64,000 nucleotides of DNA from Yuukianura sp. NJ FZ-2021 (GCA_046563655.1 CM102283.1:3348001-3412000); one strand, 5' to 3'. Shown: positions 4,501 through 63,554, counted from the stretch's first letter. The notes: a model not told the origin generated them from the sequence alone. Translations and numbers: made by a program.

Positions 4501-5094
4501 TGTTGTAGTAATCGACATAGTCAATCACAAAGTTCTCATGCACTCTTTTGAGTAAAGATCCTGGTTTGGTGGGGCAACTTAGTCCCAGAAGTGGCGTGGG
4601 GGGTGGGGCTTCTGGTGGGGGCGAGGGGCGGCGGACACATCGAACTGTTTTTGGTGGGTCGTTCAAGCTGACTCGTTTCTTGTGCTGTTTAGTAAAAGGA
4701 AGTTTCCGTGCTTCAACTTTGAATAAGTAGGTGGGGTCAGTGACCTTGGGGTCATGGTTGCCCAGGGGGATGAACTTCATGGACATTTGGAACATGCGGG
4801 CTTCCGGAGTGATGACCTTGGAATAAGACCCCTCGGGGTAAGTCATGCCCTTCACTCGGGGTTTCAAGGTCACGTCGGGAAATAGTGGATGTGGCTTAAC
4901 GAGTAATTCCAAGTCGGCTTCTGTGTAGATTTTTTTGTGTAAAGCGTCATCTTCAGTGTCTAAAAGGCAGAAAAAATTATTGACCTTTGACTTTTCAATG
5001 AAACTAATGTTGACCTGTGACATTTAACTTTAAAAGAAATGTTACCTTGAAATTCATTTTCAATGATTTCAGATTCCAGCGGGAAGAGAGGCAT
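1513..5094 (-). CDS. Uncharacterised protein of about 1060 aa with about 17 GY(L/V)DxxGxFH repeats; exons 5094-5046, 4959-4189, 3875-1513
   Basis: Long ORFs joined by phase-1 GT-AG introns; ATG at 5094 (MPLFPLESE...). Confidence 0.8.
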
Positions 5095-5449
5095 AGTGAA
5101 AAAAGCGGGATTTTTTAAATTAGATTAAAACTTAAATCTCTGGTAGCGTAAATTCTGAATTGCTGATTTAAAAAAATAGTAAATGGGATTTTGAAAATTA
5201 CAAAAAAATTAGCAACCGCATTTTTTCAGAAAAGTTTGAAGTAAATTTTTAAAACGAAGGTCAACAAAACAACAGCGGCAAAAAAAAAACAAGAAGAAAA
5301 TTCTTACACGATTCAAATCTTTGTTTCCAAGGCATAATTTCTTTTTCATAAGCTGCAAAATTTTACTTTTTGAAATCGTTTAAAATTCATGTTCCTTTTG
5401 GAAAAAAAAATCAGTCGACAAAAACTTTGCTGTCCAAACCCCTACTATG

Positions 5450-5600
5450 ATGATGCGGATTTTGAAACAGAGACGAATGAAGCCATAAACAAATTTTCCA
5501 ATTTCCTCCAATTTCCATGTCTACTATTACGGATTTTGAATTTACTCGAACATTGTTAAAATTTTCAAAAGCAATAAACGAAAGTTGAAGGTTTCTCAAA
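5450..5600 (+). pseudogene. Degenerate copy of the EcKinase last exon and 3' end
   Basis: gcggattttgaaaca...aacaaattttccaattt...ctactattacggattttgaatttactcgaacatt matches 50963-51065. Confidence 0.8.
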
Positions 5601-6035
5601 GATAAATTTAGATTTTTGAACCGTTGTCTCCCATCGTCCTTGTGGTGGAATCTACCCAAACTACCGTTTCAAGTAAAATGAAAAGTCGGACAAAGTTTTT
5701 CCAAGTGAAGTTACAAGATTTAACTTCATTTGCATTTGTCAATCCTCCGAGTTGACCAGCAGAAAAGAAAGATTAGAAGATTGAAGTCAATCTTCTAATT
5801 TGCAGAAATTTTGCATAAAACGTCAACAAGGGGAAGTTTCACAGCACGACTTGACGCACACAAGGTAATAACTTTTTTTTTGCAAATAGTTTTTGCTAAA
5901 TTCTTGAAAATTGAAATTTTGAAATCAGTGTGCTGGAGAACACTGGGTCGTCAAGTCTATCTCATTTCCTTCTCGTTATACTCAGCTAACTTTGAAAAAA
6001 ATTAGTAAAATTTGATACAACTCAATATTTCCAAA

Positions 6036-8346
6036 ATGTCAGATCGGGATTTGAACACACCGAAACCAAGGGGCACCGAGGAACAGCCCCGACAATACTT
6101 CGGTGCTTTTTCAGACGCTGAATTTGTCGCTCTTCCGAATCAAGAGGGCCCCACATCGTCATCATCCAAAAAACCGGGAGCCATGACCGAAGCACCTCAA
6201 AAACAGGTAAAATAATAATATAGTCCGACTGATTAGTTAAGATTTGAACTTTTTTTTTCAAAAAGTCAAGAAGTCAAAGCCTGACGCGCCTAAAAGTCAA
6301 AAGCTAAAATAAACTTAATAAGTTCGGTTTCGCGCATTTGCGGATTTTCAGTGCGAATGCACGCTTTTAATGATTTGAAACGGACATCATGTGATGCATT
6401 TGAACAAAACCTCTTGTCTTTTCAAAAAACTTTTCAAATTTTCCCTTTGTTCTAAAAAATCCATTCCGTTCTAAAAGGTTTTCAAGATTTTCAAACGTGT
6501 TTAGAACAGATTTGACCAAAAGCAGTGACAATTTTTCTTCTTCGACCCACTGCGACTCTTTCAAAAATGCAAATTCAGCTAAAAATTTTATTTCCGTCGC
6601 CTGTTTATTGCAAAAAGATGCAGCATGAAATTTTGCCAGAGCCTAAAATTCAAAACCAGTTTTCGAAAAAATGAAATTTTGAAAAAATTTTCAAAGCGAA
6701 GCCAAAGCAAAGCAAAAAAAAAATGAATTTACGTTCTTTCCTGCTGTTTTCAAATAATTTTTTTTAAACTTGGTTTTAGTTAAAAAAAAATACTCAACTT
6801 ATTATTTCAAAATTTGGAAAACATGTCAAAACGTGATTTGCTGGGAAAGTGGGTGCGAGAATTTCAGAATTGTTAACTTCGTTCAAATAAATTTCAAAAG
6901 TGGAGCGTCAAAAGCGTCGTCTTTCGATTGGCCGGTGGTCGAATCTCCACGGGAGCAAAAAATTTTGAAAGTTGCTTCTCGTTTTTAAGGTTGAGATGGC
7001 ATTGATTCCGAATCGGAATCGGTAGCCATCGGAATCGGTTCGTCTCCATCTTCGGTATCGTTCGTACTTCCGAGTCCAAGGATTTCCTGGACTCGTGACA
7101 AGTACGAAAAGTCACGTGCGTTGGGCAGTCCACGCAGAACGCAGGCGGCAAGCGCAGAACGATTCAAATTCATTTGCGCCGCGTCGATCCAGAGATTTTG
7201 GTTGCTGTCGTAGCACTCCACTTACGGAATTGTCGTCGTACCGTTGAAACCTAAAATTTTGAAATTCAAATTTTCAATTTCCCGTGGTTTTTTACCGCCA
7301 CTGACGAAGATCATGTCGTCGACAATTGCAGCAGCAAAGTCGCTTCTTGGACTGGACATGTCTGTGATATACTCCCAGTCACGTAGTGTAGTCGGATCGT
7401 AGGTTTCGGCACTACTAAGGCGGGAAAACCCATTTGAAACCTACCAAATTTTCAAAATTTTGAAAACTTTTGAAATTTTGAAAAATTTAGATTTCGAATC
7501 TACCGCCAATTGCATAGAGTTTGTTTTTGTGAGCTGTGACGACGACGCCGCTTCGCGGGCTTTTCATGGGAAGAATAAAAGTCTATTGGTTTTCCACCGG
7601 ATCAAAAACTTCTACGCTGTTCAAAACTTCTTGACCACTGGAAAATAATCAAAATTTTGAAAACCAAAATTTCAGAATCCAAAATTTCGAAACTCTTTAC
7701 TCTTACTTGAATCCACCAGCCACATAGACTTTGCCGAGCAAAGCGCATGCGCTGGCGTCTGATCGCTGCCGTCTCATTGGTGGACAAACCTCCCACTGAT
7801 TCGTTGGCGGATTGTAGCGCTCAACGGAATTCATTCGAATCCGTCCATTGAATCCACGAAAGATTTTCAAACGTGTTTAGAACAGATTTGACCAAAAGCA
7901 GTAACAATTTTTCCTTTTCAACCCACTGCGACTCTTTCAAAAATGGAAATTCAGCTAAAATTTTATTCCCATCTTCTCTCGATATGCAAAAAAAGCACAG
8001 CATGAAATTTTGCCAAGGCCTAATATTCAAAACAAGTTTGGAATAAATAAATTTTGCAGACTTTTTGAAGCCTTGGTTTTTATTTCAGGGAAACAAGAAA
8101 ACACTGAAGAAGGCACGACGCCTGGCCAAGAGACGTGCCAAATGGATGAACAAGAAGAAAGTGGCAATGGCAGGCATTGAACAGGGAAAGATTGAACTGG
8201 AAGACATGGAAAAAGAAGATCTCGCAATTCGACAGCAGCGTGAAATAGAAGATCTTGAAAGGAAGAAGAAGTGGAAGCTTTTGGAGGAGAAAGTCAGTGA
8301 TTTCAAAAAGGAAGTGGCGAAAGCCGACAAGATCCTGCAAGAATAA
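6036..8346 (+). CDS. Orphan gene A: low-complexity exon plus basic coiled-coil exon; exons 6036-6206 and 8089-8346
   Basis: Phase-0 donor CAG|GTAAAA at 6207 and acceptor TTTCAG| at 8088 join two ORFs in frame; leader and donor context shared with the gene at 61196. Confidence 0.6.
6367..8040 (-). pseudogene. Rearranged inverted copy of EcKinase exon 3 pieces (6367-6660, 7860-8040), the spacer, and the last four KLHL10 exons (6985-7858)
   Basis: Near-identical to 48755-50400 on the opposite strand; introns retained; lacks EcKinase exon 2; no 5' end of either gene. Confidence 0.9.
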
Positions 8347-8730
8347 GCTACATTTCTTAAAAGGTTGCAAGGTTCGTAAACAAAAAATACAAAACTTTTT
8401 CTACACCAGGTTGGTTGTCCAGTAAGTGAAAGTTTTAAAATTTGTTTGTCGAAAAAATTCTGCGTTTCTTTGGTAATTTTTTCAAAAATTCATGTAAGTT
8501 GTAAGTAATACGATTTCATTTTCCATATTCTTCTGATTAAAATTCGTAACCACCTTTTGAGGTGGTTTTTTTTTTGCTTCCAAGGTATAATTTTTTTTCC
8601 GAAGCTGCAAAATTTAACTTTTTGAAATCGTTTAAAATGCATGTTCTATTTTGACAAAAATTCAAAGTGGATAAAAGCTTTTCAAAGACAAAAAAAGATC
8701 AGTGATTAGATTTGCTAAATTTCTGTCCGT

Positions 8731-9473
8731 TCAGAATTTTAATAATCCTGTCCCCCGTCCTGTCGTTTTCGTCTCTCCATCCCGTCCATCCTCCGTCTTT
8801 TTCTGTCCACCTCCACAAATGACCGGTACTAGGACATCTCCTGGCAACTTGTGAGATCCACTGGCCTTGTTGTAGTAGTCCAGAAATGCAATGACCAATT
8901 GCTGGTGATCTTTCTTGACCTGCAGTGGAGCATCGTCCGATGGCCAGTCGAGTGTCACTTGGTCATAGTCTTCGTCTTTTGCTGGGGGCGGAGTCAGTGG
9001 TCTCGGAATGCAGCCAATGGGGTGTCGTTTCTTGGATTTGGACTTGGGAGCGCCCGAGGCGTAGCTCAACTGTCGTCCTTTGACTGCAAACAAGTATGGA
9101 GGATCCGATGGTCCGCCGGTTTCATTCGGAGTGTTGTTGAGCAGTGGGATGAATCGCATGGACGTTTTGAGGACCTTGACATGTCGCTTGGTTCGTTTGT
9201 ACGTGGCGCTGGGACGTGGCAAATTCAAATCTTGTGGGTACTGAAACGGGGGCGGTTGGGGGTGGAAAGTGGGCGTGGCTTCTGGTTGTGCCCTCAGGCG
9301 TTCGATAATTTCGTCCTGCGTTTCTGTCCTGGCTGAAAACATCAAAATTAGCAGTTTTTCGAAATTTGGAAATCATAATTTTTCAAATTTCAAATTTTCA
9401 AATCAAGGTCACGTGGAACTGAAAATTTACCGGTTGGTGGGGGATCCAAATTTTGAGCACCTCCGGGCATCAT
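8731..9473 (-). CDS. Uncharacterised protein, paralogous to the N-terminal domain of the repeat protein at 1513-5094; exons 9473-9431 and 9332-8731
   Basis: Shared blocks SMRFIPL/SMKFIPL, DPPYLFAVKGRQL/DPTYLFKVEARKL, VIAFLDYYNK/VIDYVDYYNK; same phase-1 first intron. Confidence 0.7.
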
Positions 9474-13286: not shown

Positions 13287-13417
13287 TGTATAGCCCTGCA
13301 ATCTTCTGTATTTGCTCTACTTGACAAACTAGATAATAACCTATAATAATCCAAAGAATCTTACGGTTAACCATTAACCAATTAATTACTAAGATTTAAT
13401 TAATTTTACAAAGAAAT

Positions 13418-14598
13418 ATGGAGGGGCAATAACGACTTTCACTATAAATTATTTTTATCTTATAATTAAATATTTTTTCCTTAAAATAAAAAAAAAAGTT
13501 TACAAAAAGAAAAAAAAGTTTTTGAAAAAAAATTTTTTTTGTACTTAAATAAATAATTTTTGTACTTAAAAGTATTTTTCTAAATTAGAAAAAATTTTTA
13601 TAAACTTAAAAAAAAAAGTTTAAAAGAAATATTTTTAGTTGTAAAGTTTTTTTTTCGTATAGAAAAAAATTTTGTTTTTGGCCGAAAAAATATAAATGTG
13701 GAGCACTGTAAAGAAAAACTTTTGCAACAAAAAAATAAAAATGTGGAGAAATCCTGAGCTCAGGATTGTGACGTCATAAGCCAGGATTCGGTGGTCACTT
13801 GTGTTCTCCCAATTGCATACCACGCCACTCCACTGTTGCCGGTTTTGATATTCAGAGAGGACCACGCCGTTGACAAGGCATTTTTTTTCTCGTGCCTGGG
13901 AGCAGCGGTGGGTGGTCCAAATGCTCGGTGGACAATAGACTTGCATAGAATGTCGGTAGCGCTAGTCTGGCGGAAAGAATGAGAAACATGTTTTTCTTTC
14001 CAGCGTTATCAATTCTGGCCCCTTTTATTGCTGATATCGTGTGTTTCTCCTTCTTTCCGCCAGACTAGCGCTACCTATGCTCTATGCAAGTCTATTGTCC
14101 ACCGAGCATTTGGACCACCCACCCCCCGCTCCCAAGGCACGAGAAAAAACTGCCTTGCCCTCGCCCTATCTGAATTTCAAAACCGACAACAGTGGACTCG
14201 CGTGGTAAGCAATTGGGAGAACACAACTGGCCACCGAATCCTGGCTTATGACGACACAATCCCAAAGAAAAATTTTTTCTTTTTTTTAAAAAAAAAAGTT
14301 TTCTCACAGTGCTCCACATTTATATTTCTTCCGTCAAAAATAAAGTTTTTTTTAAGCGAAAATAAACTTTATAACTAAGCAAAATATTTTTTTGAAAAAC
14401 TTTTTTTAGATATAAAAAAATATTTCTAATTTAGAAAAATACATTTAAGTACAAAAATTATTTTTTTTAAATACAAAAAAAAATTTTTTTTCAAAACTTT
14501 TTTTTCTTTTTGTAAACTTTTTTTTTTTATTTTAAGGAAAATTTTTTTAATTATAACATAAAAATAATTAATAGTGAAAGTCGTTATTCCCCCTCCAT
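13418..14598. mobile_element. Non-autonomous foldback-type DNA element with about 560 bp inverted arms
   Basis: Termini ATGGAGGGG...CCCCTCCAT; arms 13418-13980 and 14040-14598 are reverse complements; 8-bp TSD AAAGAAAT at 13410-13417 and 14599-14606. Confidence 0.88.
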
Positions 14599-15449
14599 AA
14601 AGAAATGCCGAAAGTGTATGAAAACTGCTGTTTGTAAATTGCATTCGTCTCACAGCTGTTCCGCATATTAAAAAATTTTATTTCAAATTTTTTGGCGCGA
14701 TTTTCTCATGAAGGATTTTTAGGATTGGACTAACAGATACTACACACACCACCACTACAAAAATAAAATAGATCACCATATATGGACATATTGAATTAAT
14801 TGTATTATTTTATCAATTCATATTAATTGTCACTTCCACTACTGAGATTAATTAATATATTTCGTTAATATCATATAATTAAATGTGTTTATAGTAGTTT
14901 GTAAAGTTAAAGTTGGTAAGGTCGACAAATTGTCAAATGTCAATTATGTAAATATCTTTTCTCTAGGCCTCATACGATGCAAGGACAAGGGAGGGAGAAC
15001 AACAACAACCGTTGGAGGCGCGTGGCCCTGGCCGTCTTTTAATTTTGTTTTCAGTTGTTAGTTTTTAATCTTTTAATTCTTAGTTAACGTTACATAATTT
15101 GTTAATTGACTTTGTCCTTACTTCTTTTACTGTTCTTTACCTTTGGTTGGGTAAGTTTCACCGATTTTCCTGTAAATTTTTTGTCTAGACTAATTTTTGA
15201 GGGTTATTGAACTAATTCGGGAAAATTCTTTCATAATTCCAGTAGTTACTACTTTCAGAAATACCAAGAAATTGACCAAGCACTGTTTTTTTTTCCTGAC
15301 TTTTTAACAAGAAGGAAGTTGATTTTGGATTGGGTTGCAGTCGAGCTACTAAGAAGGTAAAGAAGAATATTACATCGAATTGGTAATTGGACCTTAACGG
15401 AAACTTTTTAAATTGATTTTAGTTTTAGGTTTGACATCAGCGCATCGCT

Positions 15450-25102: not shown

Positions 25103-25381
25103 AATTCAGGATAAGGAGATAACTTCAGATAAGTTTCTCTCCATTTTCTAATTTACGTATCGTTTCTCCCTATTTTGTGAATTCTAATTTAAAATCTAAA
25201 CAAAACTCTACTCTCATCAATGTAAAATTCTAAACAAAGTAAATTTAAAACGATGCTTTAACCTTAATTTTATTTTCAATTTTTAGATAACCCGACTCTT
25301 TGCTGTTATCTCCTTATCTCTCGGTTGTATCTTTGGATTTATCTAGAGATATCGTTGGTTGTGATTGGTTGATTGGTGACG

Positions 25382-26864
25382 TTACTTCGGTGGAGATCCA
25401 CCCACGCTGGTACGTTTCCCGTCTGGTGCGGTAGATTCTCCGCTCAAGCGTTTTTCTCCAGCAACGTCAGGTACGGCTGAAGAGCCGCTCAAACGTTTTC
25501 CGTCTGGAGCTGTGGATGCCCCGCTCAAGCGTTTTTCTCCAGGAACGTCTGGCACGGCTGAAGCTCCGCTCAATCGCTTTTCTCCTGTTGGTTCTGGCAC
25601 GGCTGAAGCTCCGCTTAAGCGTTTCCCGTCTGGTACTGCAGATGCACCACTCAAACGCTTTTCTCCTTGTTCTGGTACGGCTGAAGCACCGCTGAGTCGT
25701 TTTTCTCCAGCGATTGTAGACTCTCCGCTGAGTCGTTTCTCTCCACTGGCTTCTGGTACGGCAGATGCAGCGCTCAGTCGCTTTTCTCCTGTAGGTTCTG
25801 GTACGGCAGAGGCACCACTCAAGCGCTTTCCTTCTGGTACGGCCGATTCGCCACTCAAGCGCTTCCCTTCTGGTACGGCAGATTCTCCACTCAAGCGTTT
25901 TCCTTCTAGTGCGTCTGGCACGGCTGAGGCACCACTCAATCGCTTTCCTTCTGGTACAGCTGATTCTCCGCTCAAGCGTTTTCCTTCTGGTATGGCCGAT
26001 TCGCCACTCAATCGCTTTCCTTCTGGTACTGCCGATGCACCACTCAATCGTTTTCCTTCTGGTACTTCTGGCACGGCCGATGCACCACTCAAACGTTTTC
26101 CGTCTGGAACAGCTGATGCACCACTCAATCGTTTCCCGTCTTGAACAGCTGATTGACCGCTCAATCGCTTTCCATCTGGTGCGGCAGATTGCCCACTCAG
26201 TCGTTTTTGTTCCATCACTCCTGCCCATTGATCCTCACCTAAAACAAAGCAATTGATGGTCAAAGTAATTGGTTAATCATTGTAAAAGTTAATTGATTAA
26301 TCTAAGGTAATTAGCACCATTTCTATACCTGCATACTCTCCGTATTCTTCCATTGGTGGTGGAACGTCCATCATTTCTTCCTCTTCGTCTTCAGGCAAAG
26401 GACCGCCGTACCCTGGTGGCAAGTTGGGGTATCCCGGAGTCACACCTTGAGAAAAACGAAAAAAATTTAAGATTCTGAAATTTTGAGAACTGTTTTTCGA
26501 AAGGTTTACCTTGGTTCATATTGGGTGGAGCCAATCCCTGTTGAGCACTTTCCCATTGTTTTTGCTGGACAACTCCCAACGCATTTTGGACGTCACGGCG
26601 TTTCAGCTCTTCGTTGTACCGCCAGCGCAGGAGCCAGTGACCCAGGTACTCGATTGGATCTGGACAAAAAGAAACGTCACTGATACGTCAAAGTCATTTT
26701 TTGAAAAATTGATCAATAATCTTGCGGTTACCAGCTGGTCGACGGATACAAATTTCAGCCAAGGCTGCTACCAGAACTGGGCCCAACGTTTTCTTGAGGT
26801 ACTCCACTTCTTGGTACGTTCGTTCGTTGACATTGGATGGACGAGCTTGATTCTCGGCAGCCAT
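25382..26864 (-). CDS. Dpy-30-motif (DYDC1/2-like) protein with a long KRLS repeat tail
   Basis: Spliced N-terminus YLKKTLGPVLVAALAEICIRRPADPIEYLGHWLLRW (missed by the ORF track); final exon has 20 KRLS plus 1 KRTS. Confidence 0.8.
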
Positions 26865-29245: not shown

Positions 29246-29493
29246 GAATTGTCAAAAATTCATGTGTTCTCTGCTTTCAACTTTTTGCATGTGACTGGAT
29301 TGTCAAAAATTCAGTTGTTCTCGATTTTTTGAATGTGACTGGATTGTCAAAAATTCAGTTGTTCTCGGCTTTTTGGATGTGACTGGAATGTCAAATATTC
29401 AGTTGTTCTCGGCTTTTTGGATGTGACTGGAATGTCAAATATTCAGTTGTTCTCGGCTTTTTGGATGTGACTGGAATGTCAAATATTCAGTTG
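29246..29493. repeat. 44-bp tandem minisatellite, about 5 copies
   Basis: tgtgactgg recurs at 29290, 29334, 29378, 29422, 29466. Confidence 0.92.
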
Positions 29494-29856
29494 TAGGAAT
29501 TTTCCGATATTTCAATTCCACTGCTGGAAATAATTTCCAAATACCTCCGTGAGTCTCTGACTTCGACAAAAATGTTTCCGCATATGGTACGATCAAATTT
29601 TGGTGGGTTTAATTGGGGCGTTCATGTGAAATTCAAAAATAGAACCAAACCAACTGGTTGCTTCGCGGATTCATCACTGCTCATTAGTATTATAATGGAT
29701 AGATAGATTTTAGAAATGATTATTTTTAAAAAATCTATTGCTTTTTGGAACGTATTTATTATAAATATTTTTTAATGTAGAAAAGTACAAAAAAAAAATT
29801 TGCAAATACAAAAAAAAATGTTGGTCTAGCTCGTAGCCTTCCCCGTTTCTGTGCTT

Positions 29857-42316: not shown

Positions 42317-43252
42317 CAGTAAATGCTCTAATGCAAGCGCGTATTCTAATATAAGCGCATACTCTAATGCAAGCGCGGTTTCAGCGGGGGCAAATTGCGA
42401 TATAAGCGCGGTAGCTAACTTGAGTTTAAAGCAGAGCCTAGAGCAGTGACATCATCTGTTTAACTTCTAATGTTAATTTGACTCAAATCAAAATGTAGCA
42501 CTTAAATACAAGTTTTAAAAATGGTGTAACTAAAAGACGATCGTTTGATCTCAGTTTTAAGTTAAAAGTGGTTCAGTACGCTTCTACTAATACCACGGAT
42601 GGTACCGCAGCTCACTTCGGAATACACCGAAAACAAGTCTTCAGTTGGCTGAAGCAAAAGGATAAAATCGGTAAAAATTTAACTAAATTTAGCTTTCGAC
42701 TCGCGAAAACAACTTTCTAAAGAAGCAGACAAAATGGTTTACGATTGGATTTTAAATCAGCGCACCAACCAGTAAAGTGTCTCCTTCAAATCTATTCGTG
42801 TGAAAGCTAGGGAAGTCTACTCTGCAGTGCTTCAAACAAACGAATTTCAGGCCAGCAGTGGTTGGCTACAAAAATTTATGAAGCGCCATGACCTCAGTTT
42901 GAGAAAGAAAGCGTCGTTGGCTCAAAAAGATCCAAATTCGTTATTTGAGAAGCTTGTTGAGTTCGTCATGTACACTTCCAACCTCGCTGTTACGAATAAA
43001 ATTTCCAACCCAAATATTGTTGCCATGACTGGAATATTTTTTGACATGCCAAGTATTACTACAGTGGGCACAGTTGGAGGAGGCTTGAAGAAAGCAACAG
43101 TGACACCAGCGACGAATGGCATCACTATTAATTGAATTTTGGCTCACTTAAAACTTATTAATTATTCCGGTAATAAATAGTGTTCTAATAGAAGCGCGTC
43201 CGAAAGGTCGAAAATTCTTATAAGCGGCGCGCTTATATTAGAGCATTTACGG
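42317..43252 (+). mobile_element. Internally deleted pogo/Tigger-family (Tc1-mariner) DNA transposon
   Basis: TIRs CAGTAAATGCTCTAATGCAAGCGCG and CGCGCTTATATTAGAGCATTTACGG; TA on both flanks; transposase relics SFDLSFKLKVV and FQASSGWLQKFMKRHDLSLR. Confidence 0.9.
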
Positions 43253-45110: not shown

Positions 45111-45823
45111 TTTTCAAGTTTTTGTGAAACTATTTGAAAATCGATGCTATTTAGTAACACAATCCACCAATTTGTTAGTTAACAATTAGTAATTCCAATA
45201 TCTGACTAATTGAACTTCAACTTAACTAAAAAAAAGTGGGTGACGTTAGTTTCACGCCATTTGAAACATCCAAGGTCAACCTGTGCTAAATTTTGATGTA
45301 TAGTTTTAGTTTTGTCAACTCGAAATTACGAAAATTATCTTATCTTCATCTTTTTTTACGAATGCGAAAAATTAATACTCATCATCACATGGTGGCAACT
45401 TCAATATTTCCTTAAATAATAGTAACTTTTCTAACTTTACAACTAAAAATTTGGTGTAACTTAAAAAATGTCCAATTTTTTTTTCGAAGAAGAACGTTAT
45501 AAGAATATTCTTGTATCTTCATTTACTTTTTTTCAGTAATGGAAAGTGGGTCGATGAACTTTGGAAGGTCATTGACCTTTGCTAGAATTACAAAGTGATA
45601 ACAATGTGGGAAGTTTTACACTTTAGACAATGGATTCTTGTTCAAATAAACTTTTTTTTCATATCCCTGTTCAAACAAGCACAAAACACTTCAAAAAATA
45701 CCAAATTTTTCTCTTTTTAGTTGTGTCACAATTTACTCGAGTTTATAATAACTTAAACGAAGCAACCCAAAAATCTGAGGCGGGGAGAATTTTTAAAAAA
45801 AAGTTTTGACTAAAAATTTCAAA

Positions 45824-48800
45824 ATGGCTGAAAGATTTGTTCCGTTGGACTCCACTGAAATTGTGACGAAGGAAGTAATTGAAGAAATTTTGGCACAAAG
45901 TTATTCCAATTTGACTTTGATTTCATTTAAAGTGGAACCTGGAACTGACCGTGGAGACAATTACCTGTCGCTCATGTACGCTGTGGAAGTCACCGCGGCT
46001 GAAAAGGTCAAAGGTCACAACGGTCACGACATTGCCCATAACCAAGGTCACAACGATGCGCAGAATCTGTTCAAAATTTCATGGATGTTCAAAACAATTC
46101 CGAGAAATCCACTGCGCCAGTCACAAATTCGCGAAAGTGGATTTTACCACCGAGAAGCCCAAATGTATCAAAAAGTTCTTCCAGAACTTTTTTCAAAATT
46201 TTGGACCAATGAGGATGACTCACTTTTTGCAAAATGCTTGGCCGTAAAGTTATCGCCTCCAGAAGTTGCTACAGCACAGGACTACATTGCTCTGGAAAAC
46301 CTCAAGGTCAAAGGGTAAGACTGAAATATTTTGTTGTCATGACTACGCATGGTTGGTAAGTGCTTTGCTGGTGCTCTGCTTCTAACAAAAGCCACACAGA
46401 AACCATTGTTCCACTTTTCAAAAAAATTTAGTTTTAGGTTTTCCAAATTCTCAGCACATTTTTTCATACAATTTGAAAGTAGGTTTTAGAACTCTGAAAA
46501 GTTTGTAATCACGATACTGCGTCACGACGTTCAAAAATTCGAAATTTCCTGGCACTTCAAGGTATTTCTCAAAAATTTAAAATGTTTAAAAAATTTTTGT
46601 GTTTTTGGAAAGGTAAAAGCTTACAAAAAGGTTAGGTTGATATTTATTTTTTATTTTAGAGTAAATTCGGTTGCCATCGATTTTTCTTTTGAAAATTGTT
46701 TGAAAACTTTGTTTAAAAATTCAAAAACGTCGATTTTAAAAGTTTTTGAGAAGTTTAGTGTTAGGGTGCGGTGGGTTTTAAGCGATTTATCGCTTCTGAC
46801 TTAAACTCCAACTTTTTTGTAATAAAAGCGCCAACCCAACTCGTCGCAATCGGTGACGCTTCGTCTCCCGACCACCAATGGACTTAATGCGACGTCTCCG
46901 ATTGGCTGGACGCCCCAACTCGTCCCACCCTCCACGGTCCCACCAGTCCTCCTCTCAACAGCAAGTGGGACGGCCCCACGGTGGCCCCACCGGAAGAACT
47001 ACCCATACTCCACCACCAGCAGTGACTCCTGCACAGCCTGTTCCTACACCGTTGCCATTTCAGGATCCGTTGACCGTGCCATCTCCGGTCACCAACAACA
47101 ATAACACGACTTTTCCGTGGCGGTTTCACAGCGGTGTGGTCGTGAATTCGAATCGGTCGCGGCGTCAATTGCGACCAAGTCGCAGTTCATACGCGGGACT
47201 CGCGACGCAAAAATCGCACTGCCAAGAATATCCAGAGTCTTGGACCAACTGGCAACAAATTGGAGTCGGCGCAACAGCTTTTGTCGTCTCTTCAGACAAT
47301 ATCGTAAGTTTCAAAATTTTCAAATTTTTTAAAAATTTTCAAATTTTTGAAAAATTTTCAAAAAGTGTTTTTTTTTTTTTTAGAAATTTCCAGTCCATCC
47401 AGTCGTCCTGGCCGGAGCGAGTCCCGTTTTCAAATCGCTGTTCAGCTCATGGCGTCCGCAAAACAGCTCCACTTTTTCGCCCGACTGCTCCACTTTTTCG
47501 CTGGAAGTAGATCATGTCATGCTTGGCTTACTATTGAAGTACATTTACACTGGAGTGTGTCACGTGACGCCCGAAAACGTCGAATCGCTGCTGGACGCTG
47601 CAAATCGCTTCAAGGTCGTCGGAATCATTCAGCGCTGTTGCCAAGTTTTGCACGGAATCCTCACTCCACAAAACTCCGTCAAAATTTACAACGTTGCCAA
47701 ATCCTGTTTGTGCTCCCAACTTCAAACCAACGCCAAAATGTACTTGTTGCACAATTTCAAAGCCGCGATTGACCAATCAGAATTTTTGAATTTGGACTAC
47801 GACGAACTCTCTTCACTTTTGCGTGACGACTGCCTCAATGTCCGCAGCGAAGAACTGGCGTTTTCAGCGATTCAGCGCTGGACAGAGCATGACCCAGAAA
47901 AACGACTTCAGCGATTGGTTGATCTTCTTGGCACAATTCGATTTGGACTCATGCAGCTCTCTTTTTTCAACGACGTCGTCATGACCTGGCAGTACATCGC
48001 TACAAACCCAGTCAGTTTTCAAAATTTTGAACTTTTCTTAAAATTTTTTCGAAAAAGTAAGTTTTTCAAAATTTTTAGACTGTCATAGAGGGACTACTTC
48101 CGGCCCAAATGTTTTTGGCTGCATTTGAAGGCCGAAATGGTAGTGACCTTGACCCGACCGAACCTTTGACCCGCCCACGCGTTCCGTACGAAATTATCTT
48201 CGCAATTGGTGGCTGGAGTGCAGGAAGTCCAACGAGGTTAGGTTTTTTATTATTATTTTTAATTAATTAATTTATTTATTAATTAATTTATTTATTTATT
48301 AATTAATTAATTAATTTATTAACTTAATTATATTTTTAGTTTTATGGAAACTTATGACGTCAGAGCGGATCGTTGGTTTTTGTCACAAGGGTCTGACGTC
48401 ACACCGCGGGCCTACCACGGTCTAGTCACTCTTGGACATTCCATTTACATGATTGGTGGTAATTTTCAAAAAAAAAGTTTCAAAATTTTTGAAGTTCAAA
48501 GTTTTCAAAGTTCGAAATTTTGAAATTTTGAAGGTTTTGATGGAAATGAACACTTTAATACCATGAGATGTTTTGATACAATGACGCGAACTTGGACTGA
48601 GAAGGCCAACATGCATTACCCACGATGTTACATCAGCTGCTGTGTGCTAAGTACGGTTCAAAAATTTGGAAAATGTTTCAAAATTTTAGTTTTTTTTCAA
48701 AATTTTACTTTTTCGTCAAAATTTTGTGTGTAGACGGTCAGATCTATGCCATTGGTGGATTCAACGGACGGATTCGAATGAATTCCGTTGAGCGCTACAA

Positions 48801-51080
48801 TCCGCCCACCAATCAGTGGGAAGTTTGTCCACCAATGACACGGCAGCGATCAGATGCCAGCGCATGCGCTTTGCTTGGGAAAGTCTACGTCGCTGGTGGA
48901 TTCAAGTAAGACTAAAAAAACTTCGAAATTTTGAATTCTGAAATTTTGGTTTTCGAAATTTTGGTATTTTTTGCAGTGGTCAAGAAGTTTTGAACAGCGT
49001 AGAAGTTTTTGATCCGGTCGAAAATCAATGGACTTTTATTCTTCCAATGAAAAGCCCGCGAAGCGGTGTCGTCGTCACTGCTCACAAGAACAAGCTCTAT
49101 GCAATTGGCGGTAAATTCAAAATCCAAAATTTTCAAAATTTCAAAAGTTTTCAAAATTTTGAAAATTTGGTAGGTTTCAATGGGTTTTCCCGCCTTAGTA
49201 GTGCCGAAACCTACGATCCGACTACACCACGTGACTGGGAGTACATCACTGACATGTCAAGTCCAAGAAGCAACTTTGCTGCTGCAATTGTTGACGATAT
49301 GATCTTCGTCATTGGCGGTAAAATTTTAATTTCCAAAATTTGAAAAATTTCAAGATTTTCAAAATTTTCAAAAATTTCAGGTTTCAACGGTACGACGACA
49401 ATTCCGTACGTGGAGTGCTACGACAGCAACCAAAATCTTTGGATCGATGCAGCTCACATGAATTTGAATCGATCTGCACTTGCCGCGTGCGTTCTGCGTG
49501 GTCTGCCCAATGCGCGTGACTTTTCGTACTTGTCACGAGTCCAGGAAATCCTTGGACTCGGAAGTACGAACGATACCGAAGACGAAGACGAACCGAGTCC
49601 GATGGCTACCGATTCCGATTCGGAATCAATGCCATCTCAAGCTTCTTAAAAAAACGAGAAGCAACTTTCAAAATTTTTTGCTCCCGGGGAGATTCGACCA
49701 CCGGCCAATCGGAAGACGACACTTTTGACGCTCTACTTTTGAAATTTATTTGAACGAAGTTAACAATTCTGAAATTCTCGCACCCACTTTCTCAACAAAT
49801 CACGTTTTGACTTGTTTTCCAAATTTTGAAATAATAATTTTCAGTATTTTTTTAAAAACAGCAGAACGTAAATTCATTTTCTTTTGCTTTGCTTTGGCTT
49901 CGCTTTGAAAAAAAATTCAAAAACCTTCTAAAAATAATTTTCGGTTTTAAAATTTTGATGTTTCAGTTTCAAAATGGTTCCAAGGAATACATTTCTTGAC
50001 TTGCAGCAAGCAACTATCACAGTTCAGGCAAGTTTTGTTTTAACCCTTACATACAAGTTAAAGATTTCAAAATTTCAAATTCTTCAAAATTTCATATTTT
50101 TTTTTGGAAACTGGTTTTGAATTTTAGGCTTTGGCAAAATTTCATGCAGCATCTTTTTGCAAATGGGGAGGCGACGGAAATAAAATTTTAGCTGAATTTC
50201 CATTTTTGAAAGAGTCGCAGTGGGTTGAAGAAGAAAAATTGTCACCGCTTTTGGTCAAATCTGTTCTAAACACGTTTGAAAACCTTGAACAACTTTTAGA
50301 ACAGAATGGATTTTTAGAACAAACTGAAAAGTTGAAAACTTTTTGAAAAAACAAACGTTTTTGATCAAATGCATCACATGACTTCTGTTTCAAATCAGTT
50401 TCCTTCTGTTCTAAATCACGGTGACCTCTGGACCAACAATCTTCTATTTTTAGCCAATCACAAAGGTTAGTTTGAAAAGCGCACCAATGCCATTTTGGAA
50501 TTTTCATTTTTTTTTAAATTTTAGGTGAGTCTTTTCAAAAATTGAAAATGGTTGATTTCCAAATTTCAAAAGTTGGATCAAGGGTTTTGGATTTGTCGTA
50601 TTTGTTCTACACAAGTCTTCAGAAGGAAGTACTAAATACGCAGCTTCCGCAACTCCTTCGCATGTACTTTGATGAATTTCATGAGAACATCAAAATTTTA
50701 ACTTTTTCAAAAAACACAGAAATTTTGAAATTCAAATTTGGAGATTTGAGTTGGGAGAACTTTTTAGCAGAATGGACTCAATACAAATTGTATGGTTTCG
50801 TACTGGCCGTGTTCTACGCCCCACCCAGTAATTTAGAAAACTTTTCAAAAATTTAGAATTCTAAAAGTTTCCAAACATGAAAAGAAAATCATCAAAATTT
50901 GGTTTGATACTTGCAGTGCTGGCAGTTGCAGAAAATATTCCTGACATGGAGACTTTGTGCTACGCGGATTTTGAAACAACGAAAAATGAGGAGAACAAAT
51001 TTTCCAATTTACTCCAATCTCCGTATCTACTTTTACGGATTTTCAATTTAGTCGAACATTTTTCAAATTTTCAGAAGTAA
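45824..51080 (+). CDS. Ecdysteroid kinase-like (EcKL/DUF227) gene; exons about 45824-46314, 49967-50027, 50128-50465, 50525-50827, 50916-51080; apparent 1-nt frameshift near 50340
   Basis: GDNYLS, FYHREAQMY, LENLKVKG|FKM, ALAKFHAAS, HGDLWTNN, MVDFQ, DLSYLFYTS. Confidence 0.82.
46878..49649 (+). CDS. KLHL10: BTB-BACK-Kelch protein, KLHL10-like, nested in EcKL intron 1
   Basis: FPVHPVVLAGASPVF, YIYTG, BACK domain, RPRVPYEIIFAIGGWSAGSPT, TYDVRADRW, Kelch repeats, SALAACVLRGLPN. Confidence 0.85.
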
Positions 51081-51141
51081 TAATAACAGAAAGCCTACAG
51101 TCTTCGGAGGTTTTTAAAAAAAAATAGATTAAATACAACTA

Positions 51142-56594: not shown

Positions 56595-56860
56595 TTCATA
56601 ATTTGGTTTGATGCTTTTGCAGTGCTTTCAGTCACAGAGCATATCCCTGACGTGGAGACTGAATTTTATGAAGATTGTGAACCAATGTCGAATGAGGCGA
56701 ACAAATTTACAATTTCCTCTAATCTGCATTTCTACTGTTAAGAATTTTGAACTCAGTTGACTACTATTTTAAAAATTTCAAGGAAATTGAACGCATTTCG
56801 AAATACAAAGTAAATCCAACGAACAAAAGAGAATTTACAGTCTTCGAAGGTTTTTTCCAA
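56595..56860 (+). pseudogene. Degenerate copy of the EcKinase last exon and 3' UTR
   Basis: tttggtttgatgc...ttgcagtgct...atatccctgacgtggagact...aacaaattt...acagtcttcgaaggtttt matches 50895-51115. Confidence 0.8.
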
Positions 56861-57352: not shown

Positions 57353-58289
57353 ATGAATACTCCCAGCGGAAGTCCTACTCATAGTGATCATTTTAATTCT
57401 GCAGAGATTCCTACGTTCGCTGACCTTTGGACCGAGGGAAACTCACTGGGATTACCGGAAACGACGCCAGCACAGCCCACAAATCACGAAGCACAAAAAC
57501 CATCTTCCTCTCAATCTAAATCAATGACGACCACGGATAAGCTCAAGCGTCCCGCGGTAAACCAATTACAACCCATTCCAAATCCGCTAAAGCTTTACGG
57601 TAAATGAATGCAGTAATTTGATTGGGGGAAATTATTAACAGGCAACTGGAGAAGGGGAGACTGTACTAGCACGCAAGCGAGCCAAACTGCTAGCAACAAT
57701 CCAAGCAGCCACAAAGGAGTTGGCCGACTTGGACAAAACAACTGAACTCCATCCGGAGAATACCGAACAGGAATCGACTCCAACGACGTCGACAAAGCCG
57801 CAACCAACCCCAACTCCATCTACCTCGCAATCAACGAGTGCTGCAAGCCATGAGCCTCCCAAGGTAAACCAATTACAACTCAAATTCGGTTTGGCGCAAG
57901 TCTAGAAATGTGCGAAACCATTTTGAAACTGAAACTTTCGCTACTTGCATACCCCGGATAAACAGTTCATTCCACTTTTTTGATTTCAGACGGGTGGTAT
58001 AAGAGGAGGCCAAGATGAAGGACGAGTGAACGTAACTCAACAAAATCAGCTCATGCTCGCGGAGGCAAACGAGATGGAAGCCCAGCTGAAAAAAAAGATG
58101 CAGGAAGATTTCAATCAGTTCAAGAAAAAGATGGAGGAAGACTTCAACAAGGCCATCGCTGCATGGAAAGCTCAGTCGAAAGAAAAGTACGCAACCGAAA
58201 GGGATGAAATCGAACGCATGCGTAAGGCTGGGACTGAGATGGGGCAAGAAGATGCCAAAAATCCTCAAACTGACACAGCTCGTCAATAA
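57353..58289 (+). CDS. Orphan gene B; exons 57353-57556, 57642-57863, 57990-58289
   Basis: Three ORFs joined by phase-0 introns; last exon homologous to 62606-62896. Confidence 0.72.
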
Positions 58290-60119: not shown

Positions 60120-60711
60120 TGGACGAGCAAATGAAGCGAAATGTTGGTGTGAATCACTGTTGCAAGAAAGTACTGTTCCAGTACTTCCAAAATGTTGCTA
60201 AAACGTTGGTTACTGGATTTCGTTTGGGTTTCGTCGTGCTTTAGCACTTCTCGGTGGTATTACGTGCGGTACTACACGGATGCTGGTACGACTTTGCGTT
60301 TTAGTTGGAAGATTAGATCTGAACAGTTGAGTTTAGTTTCTGTGCAGATTAGTTTAAAAATGGAAGGTAATTGAGTTTTTAGCACTTCAAATTATCATGA
60401 GTGATCAACATGAAATGCCATACATGTGTTAAGTATTCAAAAATATTTAGTATATTTAAGCAATATTTAAGCAAACTCAACGTAAAAATCAACGTTAAGC
60501 AAAAATTTTTAACGTGCATGAAATTTTAGTATTTAAATTTTCATTTACGCCTCGAAAGCCAAAGAATCAAGAAGTCTTTTGCTTTGAAATGTTTCTGATT
60601 TTAAATTGTCAATTTTTTGAGTAGCATTTATTATAGTCTTGAAAAAAAAAAGTTTTTAGTTTTTTTTTCTATTGTGTGGAACTTGTTATTTTTGGTTTGG
60701 TATGGAAGTTC

Positions 60712-61195: not shown

Positions 61196-62896
61196 ATGTC
61201 CGACTCCGACAGTGACCTTCATACCCCAAGTCCCCCGACCATTGAAAACAGCGCCGCAGTAATCTCTGAATTGCCATCATTTGCAGATCTTACGGAACTT
61301 GACCTTCCGCAAAGAGAGGAGCCTGGACCTTCATCACAAATCCTGCTTGGCATGACGGCTGGAACCCCTCATCCTGGGGTAAAATAATAATAAAAAACCA
61401 ATCCAAACAATTTTTTGAAAAAATTGGTTTCAGTTGGAAAAATACTGAAATTATTATTTCGAAATTTGGAAAACAAGTCAAATCGTGATTTGTTGAGAAA
61501 GTGGGTGCAAGAATTTCAGAATTGTTAACTTCGTTCAAATAAATTTCAAAAGTAACGCGTCAAAAGTGTCTTTTCGTCCAAAATGTCGTGTTCCGATTGG
61601 CTGGTGGTCGAATCTCCCCGGGAGCAAAAAATTTTGAAAGTTGCTTCTCGTTTTTTTTAAGAAGCTTGAGATGGCATTGATTCCGAATCGGAATCGGTAG
61701 CCATCGGACTCGGTTCGTCTTCGTCTTCGGTATCGTTCGTACTTCCGAGTCCAAGGATTTCCTGGACTCGTGACAAGTACGAAAAGTCACGTGCGTTGGG
61801 CAAGCCACGCAGCACGCAGGCGGCAAGCGCGGAGCGATTCAAATTCATGTGTGCAGCGTCGATCCAGAGATTTTGGTTGCTGTCGTAGCACTCCACGTAC
61901 GGAATTGTCGTCGTACCATTGAAACCTAAAATTTTGAAAATTTTGAAATTCAAATTTTGAAAATTTCAATTTCCCGTGGTTTTTTACCGCCAATGACGAA
62001 GATCATGTCGTCCACAATTGCAGCAGCAAAGTTGCTTCTTGGACTTGACATGTCTGTGATGTACTCCCAGTCACGTGGTGTAGTCGGATCGTAGGTTTCG
62101 GCACTACTCAGGCGGGAAAACCCATTGAAACCTACCAAATTTTCGAAATTTTGAAAACTTTTGAAATTTTGAAAAATTTGGATTTTGAATTTACCGCCAA
62201 TTGAATAGAGCTTGTTCTTGTGAGCAGTGACGACGACGCCGCTTCGCGGGCTTTTCATTGGAAGAATAAAAGTCAGTTCGTTTTCGACTGGATCAAAAAA
62301 CGCTGTTCAAAATTCTCAAAACGAATCATTTGGAAATTCAAAATTTTGAGGTTTTTAATCTCACTTGAATCCGCCAGCCACATAGACTTTCAAATCGAAA
62401 TTCAGCGAAGTAAAATCAAAGCAAAAAAAATGGATTTGAAATGAAAACGTTCTTTCCCGCCTTTTTAATTTTTTTTAAAGTTGGTTTTGTGTTTGAAACT
62501 ACTGTATGTCTGTCCGTATGTCTGTCCGTATGTCTGTCTGTCTGCCATTTCGCTACTTACATACGCCGGTTACAACTGCTCATTCCACTTTGTTTTTGAT
62601 TTCAGACGAGCGGTTTAAGAGGAGGGCAAGCCGTAACTGGAAATCCGGAGGCCATGCTTGAAGAAGCGGATAGGAAGGAAGCCCAGTTGCAGAATAAGAT
62701 TCAAGAAGAGTTCGACAAGTTCATCGCAGAATGGAGACTTAAAATGGAACAAAAGTTCGCACAGGAGAGAGGCGAAATCGAACGGCTGAGAAATGTTGCG
62801 ACCGCAATGCTGGAAAAAGATGCCGAAAAAAGTGAAACAACGGAAACCGCTCAAAGTCCTCCGCCACAACAACTGCTGGATTCTGATTCCGATTAG
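61196..62896 (+). CDS. Orphan gene C; exons 61196-61378 and 62606-62896
   Basis: Phase-0 splice gives TSGLRGGQ...MLEEADRKEAQLQNKIQEEFDKFIAEW...ERGEIERLR, homologous to gene B. Confidence 0.72.
61435..62390 (-). pseudogene. Inverted partial copy of KLHL10 3' exons and 3' flank inside the gene C intron
   Basis: Matches 48880-49850 on the opposite strand, introns retained, 5'-truncated. Confidence 0.92.
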
Positions 62897-63554
62897 GAGA
62901 GCTTCCTTAAGTACCTAACTTCCTTTTTGCTTTTACTAAAACTGTGTACGTTAACTGCAATACCGTGATTAGTTAATTACTAATTAACTAATTATTGATT
63001 AATTGAACGTGCCATCATCTGTTGTTGTAAAATGTTAAAACGCCGTAACATTAGTCGGGTTGCCAAACATTGAGCAGGGCAGGAAGCTAACTCAATAGGA
63101 GAGAAATCAAATGCTAAGATTTTAATTAATTATTTAAGTTAATTAGTTAATTAACTTAGACTAATTAACTCATTATGCAAAATTGAACTTAACGACGACA
63201 GATCCACAGCGAATGACGACTTGAAGGCCTTGCTCTAAAAAAAACATGATCAATCTGACAGAGTTTAGAATTAAAAATTTAATTTTCTTCTAAGAAAGCT
63301 AATGAGCTACACTTCTTAACCCCTTTTACAATGCTTCTCAAAGCTAACTAATTAACTTCGTAACAAAATTTAAGTTATATAATTAAGATTTAAGTCGGAG
63401 TTAGACTCCATTCTCATTCCTTTCCCATGCCTTTTATGGGAATTAAAGGCTATATAGCCGTGAAAAATAATTAGTTGTAGTTTTTTTTTCTATTTTGTGG
63501 AACTTGTTAATTTTTGAATGATTTTTGGTGTGAAGTTGACGGACTTTGTGGAGT

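What the first reader, a model, noticed from the sequence alone, without database searches (positions are those of the whole stretch)
6207..8088. Antisense KLHL10/EcKinase mosaic inside the intron of orphan gene A
Seen: about 1.7 kb of the 1.9 kb intron is an inverted, rearranged copy of the locus 42 kb away (EcKL exon 3 piece, spacer, four KLHL10 exons, a second EcKL exon 3 piece). Established: KLHL10 is a Cul3 adaptor needed for spermiogenesis in Drosophila and mouse. Inference: transcription of gene A makes long antisense RNA to KLHL10, a possible endo-siRNA/piRNA source. The layout recalls germline drive/suppressor loci such as Stellate/Su(Ste). Function is unproven.
Basis: partly seen in the sequence, partly recalled or inferred. 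Interest (0 to 1): 0.8.

Follow-up and report, generated by a model that had tools for sequence, protein, structure and literature searches.

The report
Inverted Kelch gene fragment inside intron
The intron of a small orphan gene really does hold a backwards partial copy of a nearby Kelch gene, but the copy looks like a recently broken piece of a protein-coding duplicate, and nothing yet shows that it regulates the parent gene.

Summary
1,694 of the 1,882 intron bases (6371-8064) are an inverted, rearranged DNA copy of 48752-50397: Kelch exons 6-9 with their introns, the 3'UTR, a spacer and two pieces of one EcKL exon.

Four things are new:
- The parent Kelch gene lies inside an intron of the EcKL gene.
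- A second host paralog, A' (61196-62896), carries the same kind of antisense Kelch piece in the matching intron. A third paralog, A'' (57353-58289), has a short, empty intron.
- Copy A is broken by two stop codons and a +1 frameshift. Copy B keeps a 158-codon open frame with one amino-acid change.
- Differences among parent, A and B fall on third codon positions (dN/dS 0.04-0.15). That is the mark of protein constraint, not of antisense pairing.

There is no hairpin, no listed RNA run, and KLHL10 orthology could not be tested.

Most likely copy A is a recently decayed relic, and its antisense RNA is only a by-product of host transcription. An siRNA role stays possible: there are 224 perfect antisense 21-mers. 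It is unsupported.

The parts
6036..6206 (+). Gene A, first coding exon (57 codons, ATG at 6036)
   Evidence: Open frame and donor AAACAG|gtaaaata. No Pfam hit.
6207..8088 (+). Gene A intron (1,882 nt) holding the mosaic
   Evidence: gt...ag borders. 1,694 nt are copied from 48752-50397.
8089..8346 (+). Gene A, last coding exon (85 codons plus stop), lysine/glutamate-rich
   Evidence: Frame continues from exon 1. No relatives found.
6371..6689 (-). EcKL exon piece A1, a copy of parent 50077-50397
   Evidence: 88.6% over 324 nt. Differences are spread evenly over codon positions, 4/6/7.
6677..6984 (-). Copy of the Kelch 3'UTR and downstream spacer (parent 49650-49922). Parent 49923-50076 is missing at the joint with A1.
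6985..7250 (-). Copy of Kelch exon 9. In-frame TAA at 7222-7224; the terminal stop is kept at 6985-6987.
7296..7440 (-). Copy of Kelch exon 8 with one extra base at 7435 (frameshift)
7504..7637 (-). Copy of Kelch exon 7. A Trp codon has become TAG at 7583-7585.
   Evidence: A contig of run X4 reads TGG here.
7707..7860 (-). Copy of the 3' part of Kelch exon 6 (parent 48752-48905)
   Evidence: NG86 for exon 6 gives 9 synonymous to 1 non-synonymous differences.
7860..8064 (-). EcKL exon piece A2, a second copy of parent 50077-50286, joined directly to Kelch exon 6
   Evidence: 84.8% to the parent and 85.4% to A1. The junction is bridged by X4 record 30.
46878..49649 (+). Parent BTB-BACK-Kelch gene, 9 exons, 721 codons, intact
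   Evidence: Gene model. Pfam BTB, BACK and Kelch_1.
45797..51083 (+). EcKL gene that hosts the Kelch gene in an intron. The N-terminal exon lies within 45797-46315 and the later exons at about 49966-51083.
   Evidence: PF02958 profile positions 2-102 at 45797-46315 and 236-293 at 50518-50826. A frame break near 50340 was seen.
61196..62896 (+). Paralog A' (exons 61196-61378 and 62606-62896), whose intron 61379-62605 holds Kelch copy B
61438..62391 (-). Kelch copy B (parent 48879-49851). A 158-codon frame is open from the ATG at 62256-62258 to the stop codon at 61656-61658.
   Evidence: 20 nt differences from the parent and 1 amino-acid difference. Upstream of the ATG there are two deletions.
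57353..58289 (+). Paralog A'' (three exons). The matching intron 57864-57989 is 126 nt and has no Kelch insert, so it is the empty site.

Best explanation
The mosaic is a DNA-level, intron-retaining, inverted partial duplicate of the 3' half of a BTB-BACK-Kelch gene together with the next exon of the EcKL gene in which that Kelch gene is nested.

It is one of two such copies. They sit antisense in the homologous introns of two members (A, A') of a fast-evolving orphan gene family that has three members in this window.

The copy in the finding (A) is now a dead gene piece: two premature stops and one frameshift. Its history, however, is that of a protein-coding sequence kept by purifying selection until recently. 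Either it was copied from a functional Kelch paralog not in this window, or it was itself once read as protein (inferred).

Today it is most likely a passenger. It is transcribed only as part of the host pre-mRNA, removed with the intron, and has no selected antisense role. The antisense complementarity to the Kelch mRNA follows automatically from its orientation.
For: - It is a DNA duplicate, not a retrocopy. Introns 6, 7 and 8 and their gt/ag ends are kept.
- Lesions in A: TAG at 7583-7585, +1 base at 7435, TAA at 7222-7224.
- Differences by codon position 1/2/3: P-A 2/6/34, P-B 4/1/20, A-B 6/5/20, with binomial p of 3e-10, 2e-6 and 4e-4.
- NG86: dS is 0.19-0.23 over exons 7-9 for all three pairs (0.24 for P-A over exons 6-9), and dN is 0.009-0.030. 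dN/dS is 0.10 (P-A), 0.04 (P-B) and 0.15 (A-B). Fisher p is at most 5e-7 for each pair.
- The neighbouring EcKL pieces, which should be neutral, show no such bias: 4/6/7, 2/7/8 and 3/6/8.
- Changes private to A are 10 synonymous to 8 non-synonymous. This fits a short neutral phase after a long constrained one.
- Exons are not better kept than intron 7 or the 3'UTR. Third positions differ more than those non-coding parts: 25/171 against 11/249 for P-A, and 20/172 against 9/249 for P-B. There is therefore no sign of selection for exon-wide pairing.
- The host transcripts hold no inverted repeat of note, and folding 6700-7400 gives only z = -3.9.
Against: - The same fragment lies in the same antisense orientation in the same intron of two host paralogs that are much older than the inserts. 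The A/A' 5' flank is 73% identical, and A'-A'' last-exon dS is 0.76. The A and B Kelch exons are 90-95% identical. This means two acquisitions or continued exchange, which a pure-junk reading does not predict.
- The 3' 132 nt of exon 9 show 0 of 44 (P-B) and 1 of 43 (P-A) third-position differences, against 13 of 45 and 12 of 45 just upstream. The 3'UTR differs by only a few percent. This is either nucleotide-level conservation or recent gene conversion.
- There are 224 (A) and 303 (A') perfect antisense 21-mers against the parent mRNA.
- Copy B still has an open, almost unchanged 158-codon frame. The family may therefore not be dead.
- No expression data of any kind could be obtained.
Confidence: 0.5

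Rival explanations
1. Antisense regulator. Host-gene transcription through the insert gives RNA that pairs in trans with Kelch (pre-)mRNA. The pairing feeds an endo-siRNA or piRNA pathway that tunes or silences the Kelch gene in the germline. The two copies have been kept, or refreshed by gene conversion, for that purpose.
For: - Both copies are antisense to their host's direction, in two paralogous introns.
- There are 224 and 303 perfect antisense 21-mers, with blocks up to 68 and 140 nt.
- The 3' end of exon 9 plus the 3'UTR is nearly identical in all three copies.
- The inserts are younger than the host paralogs, as expected if they are renewed.
- Passages of PMC10317233 say new siRNA loci typically derive from their targets and use pre-existing transcription units.
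Against: - There is no hairpin. Double-stranded RNA would need pairing in trans between a short-lived intron and an mRNA.
- Divergence is codon-periodic, and pairing selection does not explain that.
- Synonymous sites have drifted to about 12-15% difference.
- There are only two copies and no amplification.
- The parent's role in the germline is assumed, not shown.
Confidence: 0.18
2. Nested truncated coding genes. The minus strand of the A and A' introns encodes N-terminally truncated Kelch proteins (last blades plus acidic tail, no BTB/BACK) that have been under purifying selection in place. Copy B is still intact. Copy A lost the frame very recently.
For: - A-B dN/dS is 0.15 although both are truncated.
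- In copy B, from the ATG at 62256-62258, 20 nt differences from the parent give 1 amino-acid change, falling 2/0/18 by codon position. Everything upstream of that ATG is decayed: two deletions and 4-5 amino-acid changes.
- On B's own branch downstream of the ATG, 5 of 6 changes are synonymous (p = 0.003).
- Splice sites of introns 7 and 8 are kept in both copies.
- Conservation of the 3'UTR ends at an AATAA-like motif near parent 49835.
- All neutral classes agree on one age of about 8-15%: the EcKL pieces, intron 6 and third positions.
- A contig of run X4 has TGG where copy A has TAG.
Against: - One and a half to three and a half Kelch blades cannot form a propeller alone.
- No promoter, transcript or peptide evidence exists.
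- The decay next to the ATG in B could be damage from the insertion junction.
- An unseen full-length paralog would explain the same numbers. 4 of the 24 variant places in cross-mapped contigs match neither the parent nor B, and all 4 are synonymous, which hints at further copies.
Confidence: 0.25
3. Assembly artefact: the mosaic was created by collapsing or mis-joining paralogous sequence.
For: No listed contig spans the whole stretch. Runs X1-X3 come from one sample that may be the source of the assembly.
Against: - The copies differ from the parent by about 12%, so they are not collapsed duplicates.
- Junctions are bridged by contigs with no differences. These include X4, from a second study, across 7860 and across 6677-6689.
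Confidence: 0.02

Closest known systems
Pseudogene-derived antisense RNAs and endo-siRNA precursors (trans natural antisense pairs; described for mouse oocytes and rice; recalled, plus the search listing for PMC2708354)
   Same: A gene-derived, non-coding copy lies antisense within another transcription unit and has long perfect matches to the parent mRNA.
   Different: - Here the copy is intronic.
- It retains its introns, so it is a DNA duplicate.
- It shows protein-type constraint.
- No transcripts or small RNAs are known for it.
Drosophila hairpin RNA (hpRNA) loci such as hp-Nmy and the de novo D. simulans hpRNAs (PMC10317233, passages read)
   Same: It derives from the presumed target gene, is young, and sits inside an existing transcription unit.
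   Different: The defining inverted-repeat arms within one transcript are absent. A real long hairpin exists elsewhere in the window (13417-14599) but has no similarity to the Kelch locus.
Stellate / Su(Ste) (PMC7874207, passages read)
   Same: Copies are about 90% similar to a protein-coding relative, carry frame-breaking mutations, and could give antisense RNA.
   Different: Su(Ste) is a Y-linked array of hundreds of repeats whose antisense transcription starts in an inserted hoppel transposon. Here there are two dispersed single copies, no transposon promoter, and antisense RNA only through the host gene.
Nested genes and partial gene duplicates in arthropod introns (general knowledge, recalled)
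   Same: The parent Kelch gene is itself nested in an EcKL intron. The copies lie nested on the opposite strand of another gene.
   Different: The copies lack the 5' two thirds of the gene. Whether they were ever complete in place is unknown.

Membership tests
BTB-BACK-Kelch (KLHL) proteins, for the parent gene | N-terminal BTB, then BACK, then Kelch repeats | tested here: met
   PF00651 at 6.3e-15, PF07707 at 1.8e-25, and PF01344 on exons 6-8. The best solved relatives are KLHL3 and KBTBD2.
KLHL10 orthologs | Reciprocal best match or phylogenetic grouping with KLHL10 | not testable with these tools
   No KLHL10 structure appears among the PDB hits. Protein searches gave 0 hits and 1 unnamed hit. 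Atlas clusters are generic BTB/BACK.
EcKL (ecdysteroid kinase-like, PF02958) | Match to the family profile above the curated cut-off | tested here: met
   55.7 bits at 50518-50826 and 55.9 bits at 45797-46315; the cut-off is 22. The copied exon alone (50128-50346) gave no hit. It is assigned by its position within the gene.
hpRNA loci | Inverted-repeat arms within one primary transcript | tested here: not met
   Only one AT-rich pair of 26-28 nt was found in each host transcript. Fold z is -3.9, against -29.6 for a true hairpin.
hpRNA loci | Dicer-2-dependent siRNAs and de-repression of the target | not testable with these tools
   No RNA holder was listed.
Su(Ste)-type suppressor repeats | Tandem amplification of the antisense-producing unit | tested here: not met
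   There are two dispersed copies in 64 kb and no array. The rest of the genome was not seen.
Su(Ste)-type suppressor repeats | Antisense transcription from an inserted transposon promoter | tested here: not met
   No transposon-like sequence or Pfam transposase hit lies in 5300-8700. Antisense RNA would have to come from the host gene.
Processed pseudogene (retrocopy) | Loss of introns and a poly(A) tract | tested here: not met
   Introns 6-8 are retained and flanking genomic DNA was co-copied.
Duplicated (unprocessed) pseudogene fragment | Intron-containing partial copy with frame-breaking lesions | tested here: met
   Copy A has two stops and a +1 frameshift. Copy B has lost the start of exon 7.
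Trans natural antisense pair | Both strands expressed in the same cells | not testable with these tools
   No RNA data.

The most novel reading that the evidence does not exclude
The orphan family's introns act as a landing and renewal site for antisense pieces of a Kelch gene lineage.

The pieces are repeatedly copied or converted from functional Kelch genes and are kept in a conflict with them. They would act either as sources of antisense small RNAs or as truncated BTB-less decoy proteins (copy B).

The excess of synonymous change in the parent, 2 to 3.5 times that of nearby non-coding sites, would then be the parent escaping pairing while keeping its protein.
Probability: 0.12. Interest if true: 0.8.

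Novelty: new member of a known kind. Interest (0 to 1): 0.42.

Why it matters
If copy A is only a relic, the locus is an ordinary by-product of local gene duplication. Its main value is a caution: antisense orientation plus homology does not show regulation.

Three features still deserve data:
- The same fragment was acquired in parallel, in the same orientation, in two old paralogous introns.
- Truncated copies diverge almost only at synonymous sites.
- One copy keeps an open frame.

If these reflect function, the locus would be an early-stage example of a gene fragment recruited against, or beside, its parent. It would sit outside the hairpin and array architectures known from Drosophila.

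Tried and rejected
- The whole genome is not held, so other Kelch paralogs could not be sought.
- No RNA holder was listed for 5300-8700. Only 4 DNA-type runs of 2 studies appeared.
- Laid contigs cannot show expression or strand. No listed piece spans the whole stretch.
- Rfam and tRNA scans of the window found nothing.
- Protein searches for naming the Kelch gene found 0 hits (longer proteins) and 1 unnamed hit at 43% identity.
- Searches for relatives of the orphan family found nothing: 0 hits among 1.84 billion representatives for the A'' last exon, 0 for the gene A last exon, and no usable Atlas hit for the A' last exon. These libraries appear poor in relatives of this organism, so 'orphan' is provisional.
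- Literature: 'KLHL10' with 'hpRNA' gave 1 paper, a spermatid review. 'KLHL10', 'antisense', 'pseudogene' and 'endo-siRNA' (any 3 of 4) gave 295 papers. The 10 listed were general, and none of them held KLHL10. I found no printed case of an antisense Kelch/KLHL10 copy in these two searches.
- A model of refreshment by gene conversion from the parent alone was rejected. It predicts about 2:1 third-position to first/second-position divergence per site. The observed ratio is about 8:1.
- A single insertion before the A/A' duplication with no later exchange was rejected, because the hosts are far more diverged than the inserts.
- An in-frame EcKL-Kelch fusion on the minus strand was rejected, because the frames do not join at 7860.
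The stop is kept at 6985-6987.

Full report
**What is there**

The window is eukaryotic, and no genome is held for it. Its gene content suggests an arthropod. That is an inference from the Pfam scan, where I gave 84 of the 209 ORFs of 75 aa or more and 26 had hits. Hits included hemocyanin domains at 29.9-32.1 kb, glycosyl hydrolase 31, a polysaccharide deacetylase fragment and EcKL.

At 46878-49649 (+) lies an intact nine-exon gene of 721 codons. It has BTB, BACK and Kelch_1 domains (5 of the 11 exon translations had hits).

An EcKL N-terminal exon lies upstream of it at 45797-46315. The later EcKL exons lie downstream, at about 49966-51083. The Kelch gene is therefore nested, on the same strand, in an intron of the EcKL gene. 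This explains why the copied block joins Kelch exons to an internal EcKL exon.

**The observation**

blastn shows that 6371-8064 is an inverted copy of 48752-50397, in three blocks:
- 6371-6689 = 50397-50077 (88.6%).
- 6677-7860 = 49922-48752 (88.0%, 1210 nt, E 0.0).
- 7860-8064 = 50286-50077 (84.8%).

Parent 49923-50076 is missing at the first joint. The second EcKL piece is joined directly to the middle of Kelch exon 6.

Introns 6-8 are present, so this is a DNA duplicate and not a retrocopy.

The block fills 1,694 of the 1,882 bases of the intron of a two-coding-exon gene, 'gene A': 6036-6206 and 8089-8346, 142 codons.

Contigs from four public DNA-type runs of two studies cover the region and bridge the junctions without differences. 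None of the listed pieces spans everything. Three of the runs are one sample and may be the source of the assembly.

**New context**

Gene A has two paralogs in the window.

A' (61196-61378 and 62606-62896) has an intron of 1,227 nt. It contains a second inverted Kelch copy, 'B': 61438-62391 = parent 49851-48879.

A'' (57353-57556, 57642-57863, 57990-58289) has an intron of only 126 nt at the matching place. The last 58 nt of that intron are 84% identical to the end of the A' intron. A'' is therefore the empty site.

Relics of the last EcKL exon precede two of the three paralogs: 5455-5577 before gene A and 56596-56780 before A''. Upstream of A', the stretch from 60715 matches the last few dozen bases of that exon and the DNA just downstream of it in the parent, 51036-51119.

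The family gave no database hits and is old and fast-evolving:
- A'-A'' last exon: dS 0.76, dN 0.39.
- A-A' first coding exon: dS saturated.
- A-A' 5' flank: 73% identical.

The Kelch inserts are much more alike, at 90-95% in exons. They were therefore acquired or exchanged after the hosts diverged.

**State of the copies**

Copy A has a Trp codon turned to TAG (7583-7585), an extra base in exon 8 (7435) and a Tyr codon turned to TAA (7222-7224). Its terminal stop is kept.

Copy B has lost the start of exon 7 through two deletions. From an internal ATG (62256-62258) to the stop it keeps 158 open codons, with 20 nucleotide differences but only one amino-acid difference from the parent.

**The unexpected pattern**

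Differences among parent (P), A and B fall overwhelmingly on third codon positions:

| Pair | Differences at position 1 / 2 / 3 |
|---|---|
| P-A | 2 / 6 / 34 |
| P-B | 4 / 1 / 20 |
| A-B | 6 / 5 / 20 |

NG86 over exons 7-9 gives dS 0.19-0.23 and dN 0.009-0.030. Over exons 6-9, P-A dS is 0.24.

| Pair | dN/dS |
|---|---|
| P-A | 0.10 |
| P-B | 0.04 |
| A-B | 0.15 |

Sites where A and B agree against P are 12 synonymous and 0 non-synonymous. Changes private to A are 10 to 8. Changes private to B downstream of the ATG are 5 to 1.

The adjoining EcKL pieces show flat counts (4/6/7, 2/7/8, 3/6/8) at 8-11% divergence.

Third positions are also 1.6 to 3.3 times more diverged than intron 7 plus the 3'UTR. 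First and second positions are about half as diverged as those non-coding parts.

The pattern is patchy. The first 134 nt of exon 9 have 12-13 third-position differences out of 45 in the P-A and P-B pairs, and 9 of 45 in A-B. The last 132 nt have 0-1 out of 43-44. That suggests gene-conversion tracts or local nucleotide-level constraint.

**What this means**

Dead fragments should change evenly over codon positions. These did not, even between the two truncated copies. So most of the divergence accumulated in sequences that were read as protein. I see three ways this could happen:
- (a) A and B are recent offshoots of one or more functional Kelch paralogs outside the window.
- (b) The truncated copies were themselves translated and selected in place. 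B may still be, and A lost its frame recently.
- (c) The parent's synonymous sites evolve unusually fast while the copies are repeatedly refreshed.

Refreshment from the parent alone at neutral rates predicts about 2:1, not the observed 8:1, and is rejected.

In favour of (a): 20 of the 24 variant places in the Kelch part of the cross-mapped contigs match P and/or B states. 4 match neither, and all 4 are synonymous third-position changes. The 3 variant places in the EcKL piece match the parent. The one at 8481 was not examined.

In favour of (b):
- Decay in B stops sharply at the ATG.
- Splice sites are conserved.
- The 3'UTR is conserved up to an AATAA-like motif.
- All neutral classes agree on one age.
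- A contig of run X4 reads TGG where A has TAG.

I cannot separate (a) from (b) without the genome.

**The antisense idea**

The geometry holds. There are 224 (A) and 303 (A') perfect antisense 21-mers against the spliced parent mRNA, and none in the same-sense control.

Against it:
- There is no intramolecular hairpin.
- The antisense sequence is intronic.
- Only two copies exist.
- The conservation pattern is not the one pairing would select.

No RNA run was available.

Compared with hpRNA loci (PMC10317233, passages), the defining inverted repeat is absent. Compared with Su(Ste) (PMC7874207, passages), the array and the transposon-driven antisense promoter are absent.

The KLHL10 label could not be tested.

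**Verdict**

The best reading, at 0.5, is that copy A is a recently decayed relic of a protein-coding Kelch duplicate, carried as an intron passenger.

Rivals are a nested truncated coding gene family (0.25), an antisense small-RNA source (0.18) and an assembly artefact (0.02).

Interest is moderate. The parallel occupancy of two old paralogous introns and the synonymous-only divergence of truncated copies are odd enough to merit RNA and whole-genome checks.

Noticed in passing
window 13417-14599: A 1.2-kb near-perfect palindrome: arms about 580 nt, inner arms 94% complementary with 53 nt between them. 13660-14360 folds at -431.6 kcal/mol, z = -29.6. It has no similarity to the Kelch/EcKL locus and no Pfam hit on its ORFs. 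It could be a foldback element or a true hairpin-RNA locus.
   Followed up: partly
window 45797-51083: The intact Kelch gene is nested, on the same strand, in an intron of the EcKL gene. The EcKL reading frame appears broken near 50340, whereas copy A1 reads through there. The EcKL gene may be decaying.
   Followed up: partly
window 5320-5428 / 8573-8681 and 60632-60693 / 63453-63514: Gene A and gene A' are each bracketed by their own direct repeats (84% over 111 nt; 84% over 62 nt), giving units of 3,253 and 2,821 nt. These look like edges of old tandem duplications of the orphan family.
   Followed up: no
window 8117-9000: In run X4 the contig depth is 42-73 in the bins from 8082 to 9000 (two long contigs at 52-57) but about 0-5 over most of the rest of 5000-8100, apart from a few low-complexity bins. 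Runs X1-X3 are roughly flat. One contig ends at 8117 with 29 unmatched letters. This could mean the run is RNA-like and is showing the 3' end of the minus-strand gene at 8734-9372 overlapping gene A's last exon. It could also be a multi-copy segment in that organism.
   Followed up: no
window 57353-58289 and 61196-62896: A' is a mosaic. Its 5' flank and first exon resemble gene A (73-80%), while its intron end and last exon resemble A'' (84% and 70%). This points to recombination within the orphan family.
   Followed up: partly
window 25380-26272: Coding repeats of 36/81-nt period with a Formin FH1-like (proline-rich) Pfam hit on the minus strand.
   Followed up: no
window 29272-29538: Five to six tandem copies of a 44-nt unit next to a hemocyanin-domain gene.
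   Followed up: no
window 42776-43132: A fragment with a Tc5/pogo transposase DNA-binding domain (PF03221, 6.6e-9). It is the only transposon trace seen in the ORFs scanned.
   Followed up: no
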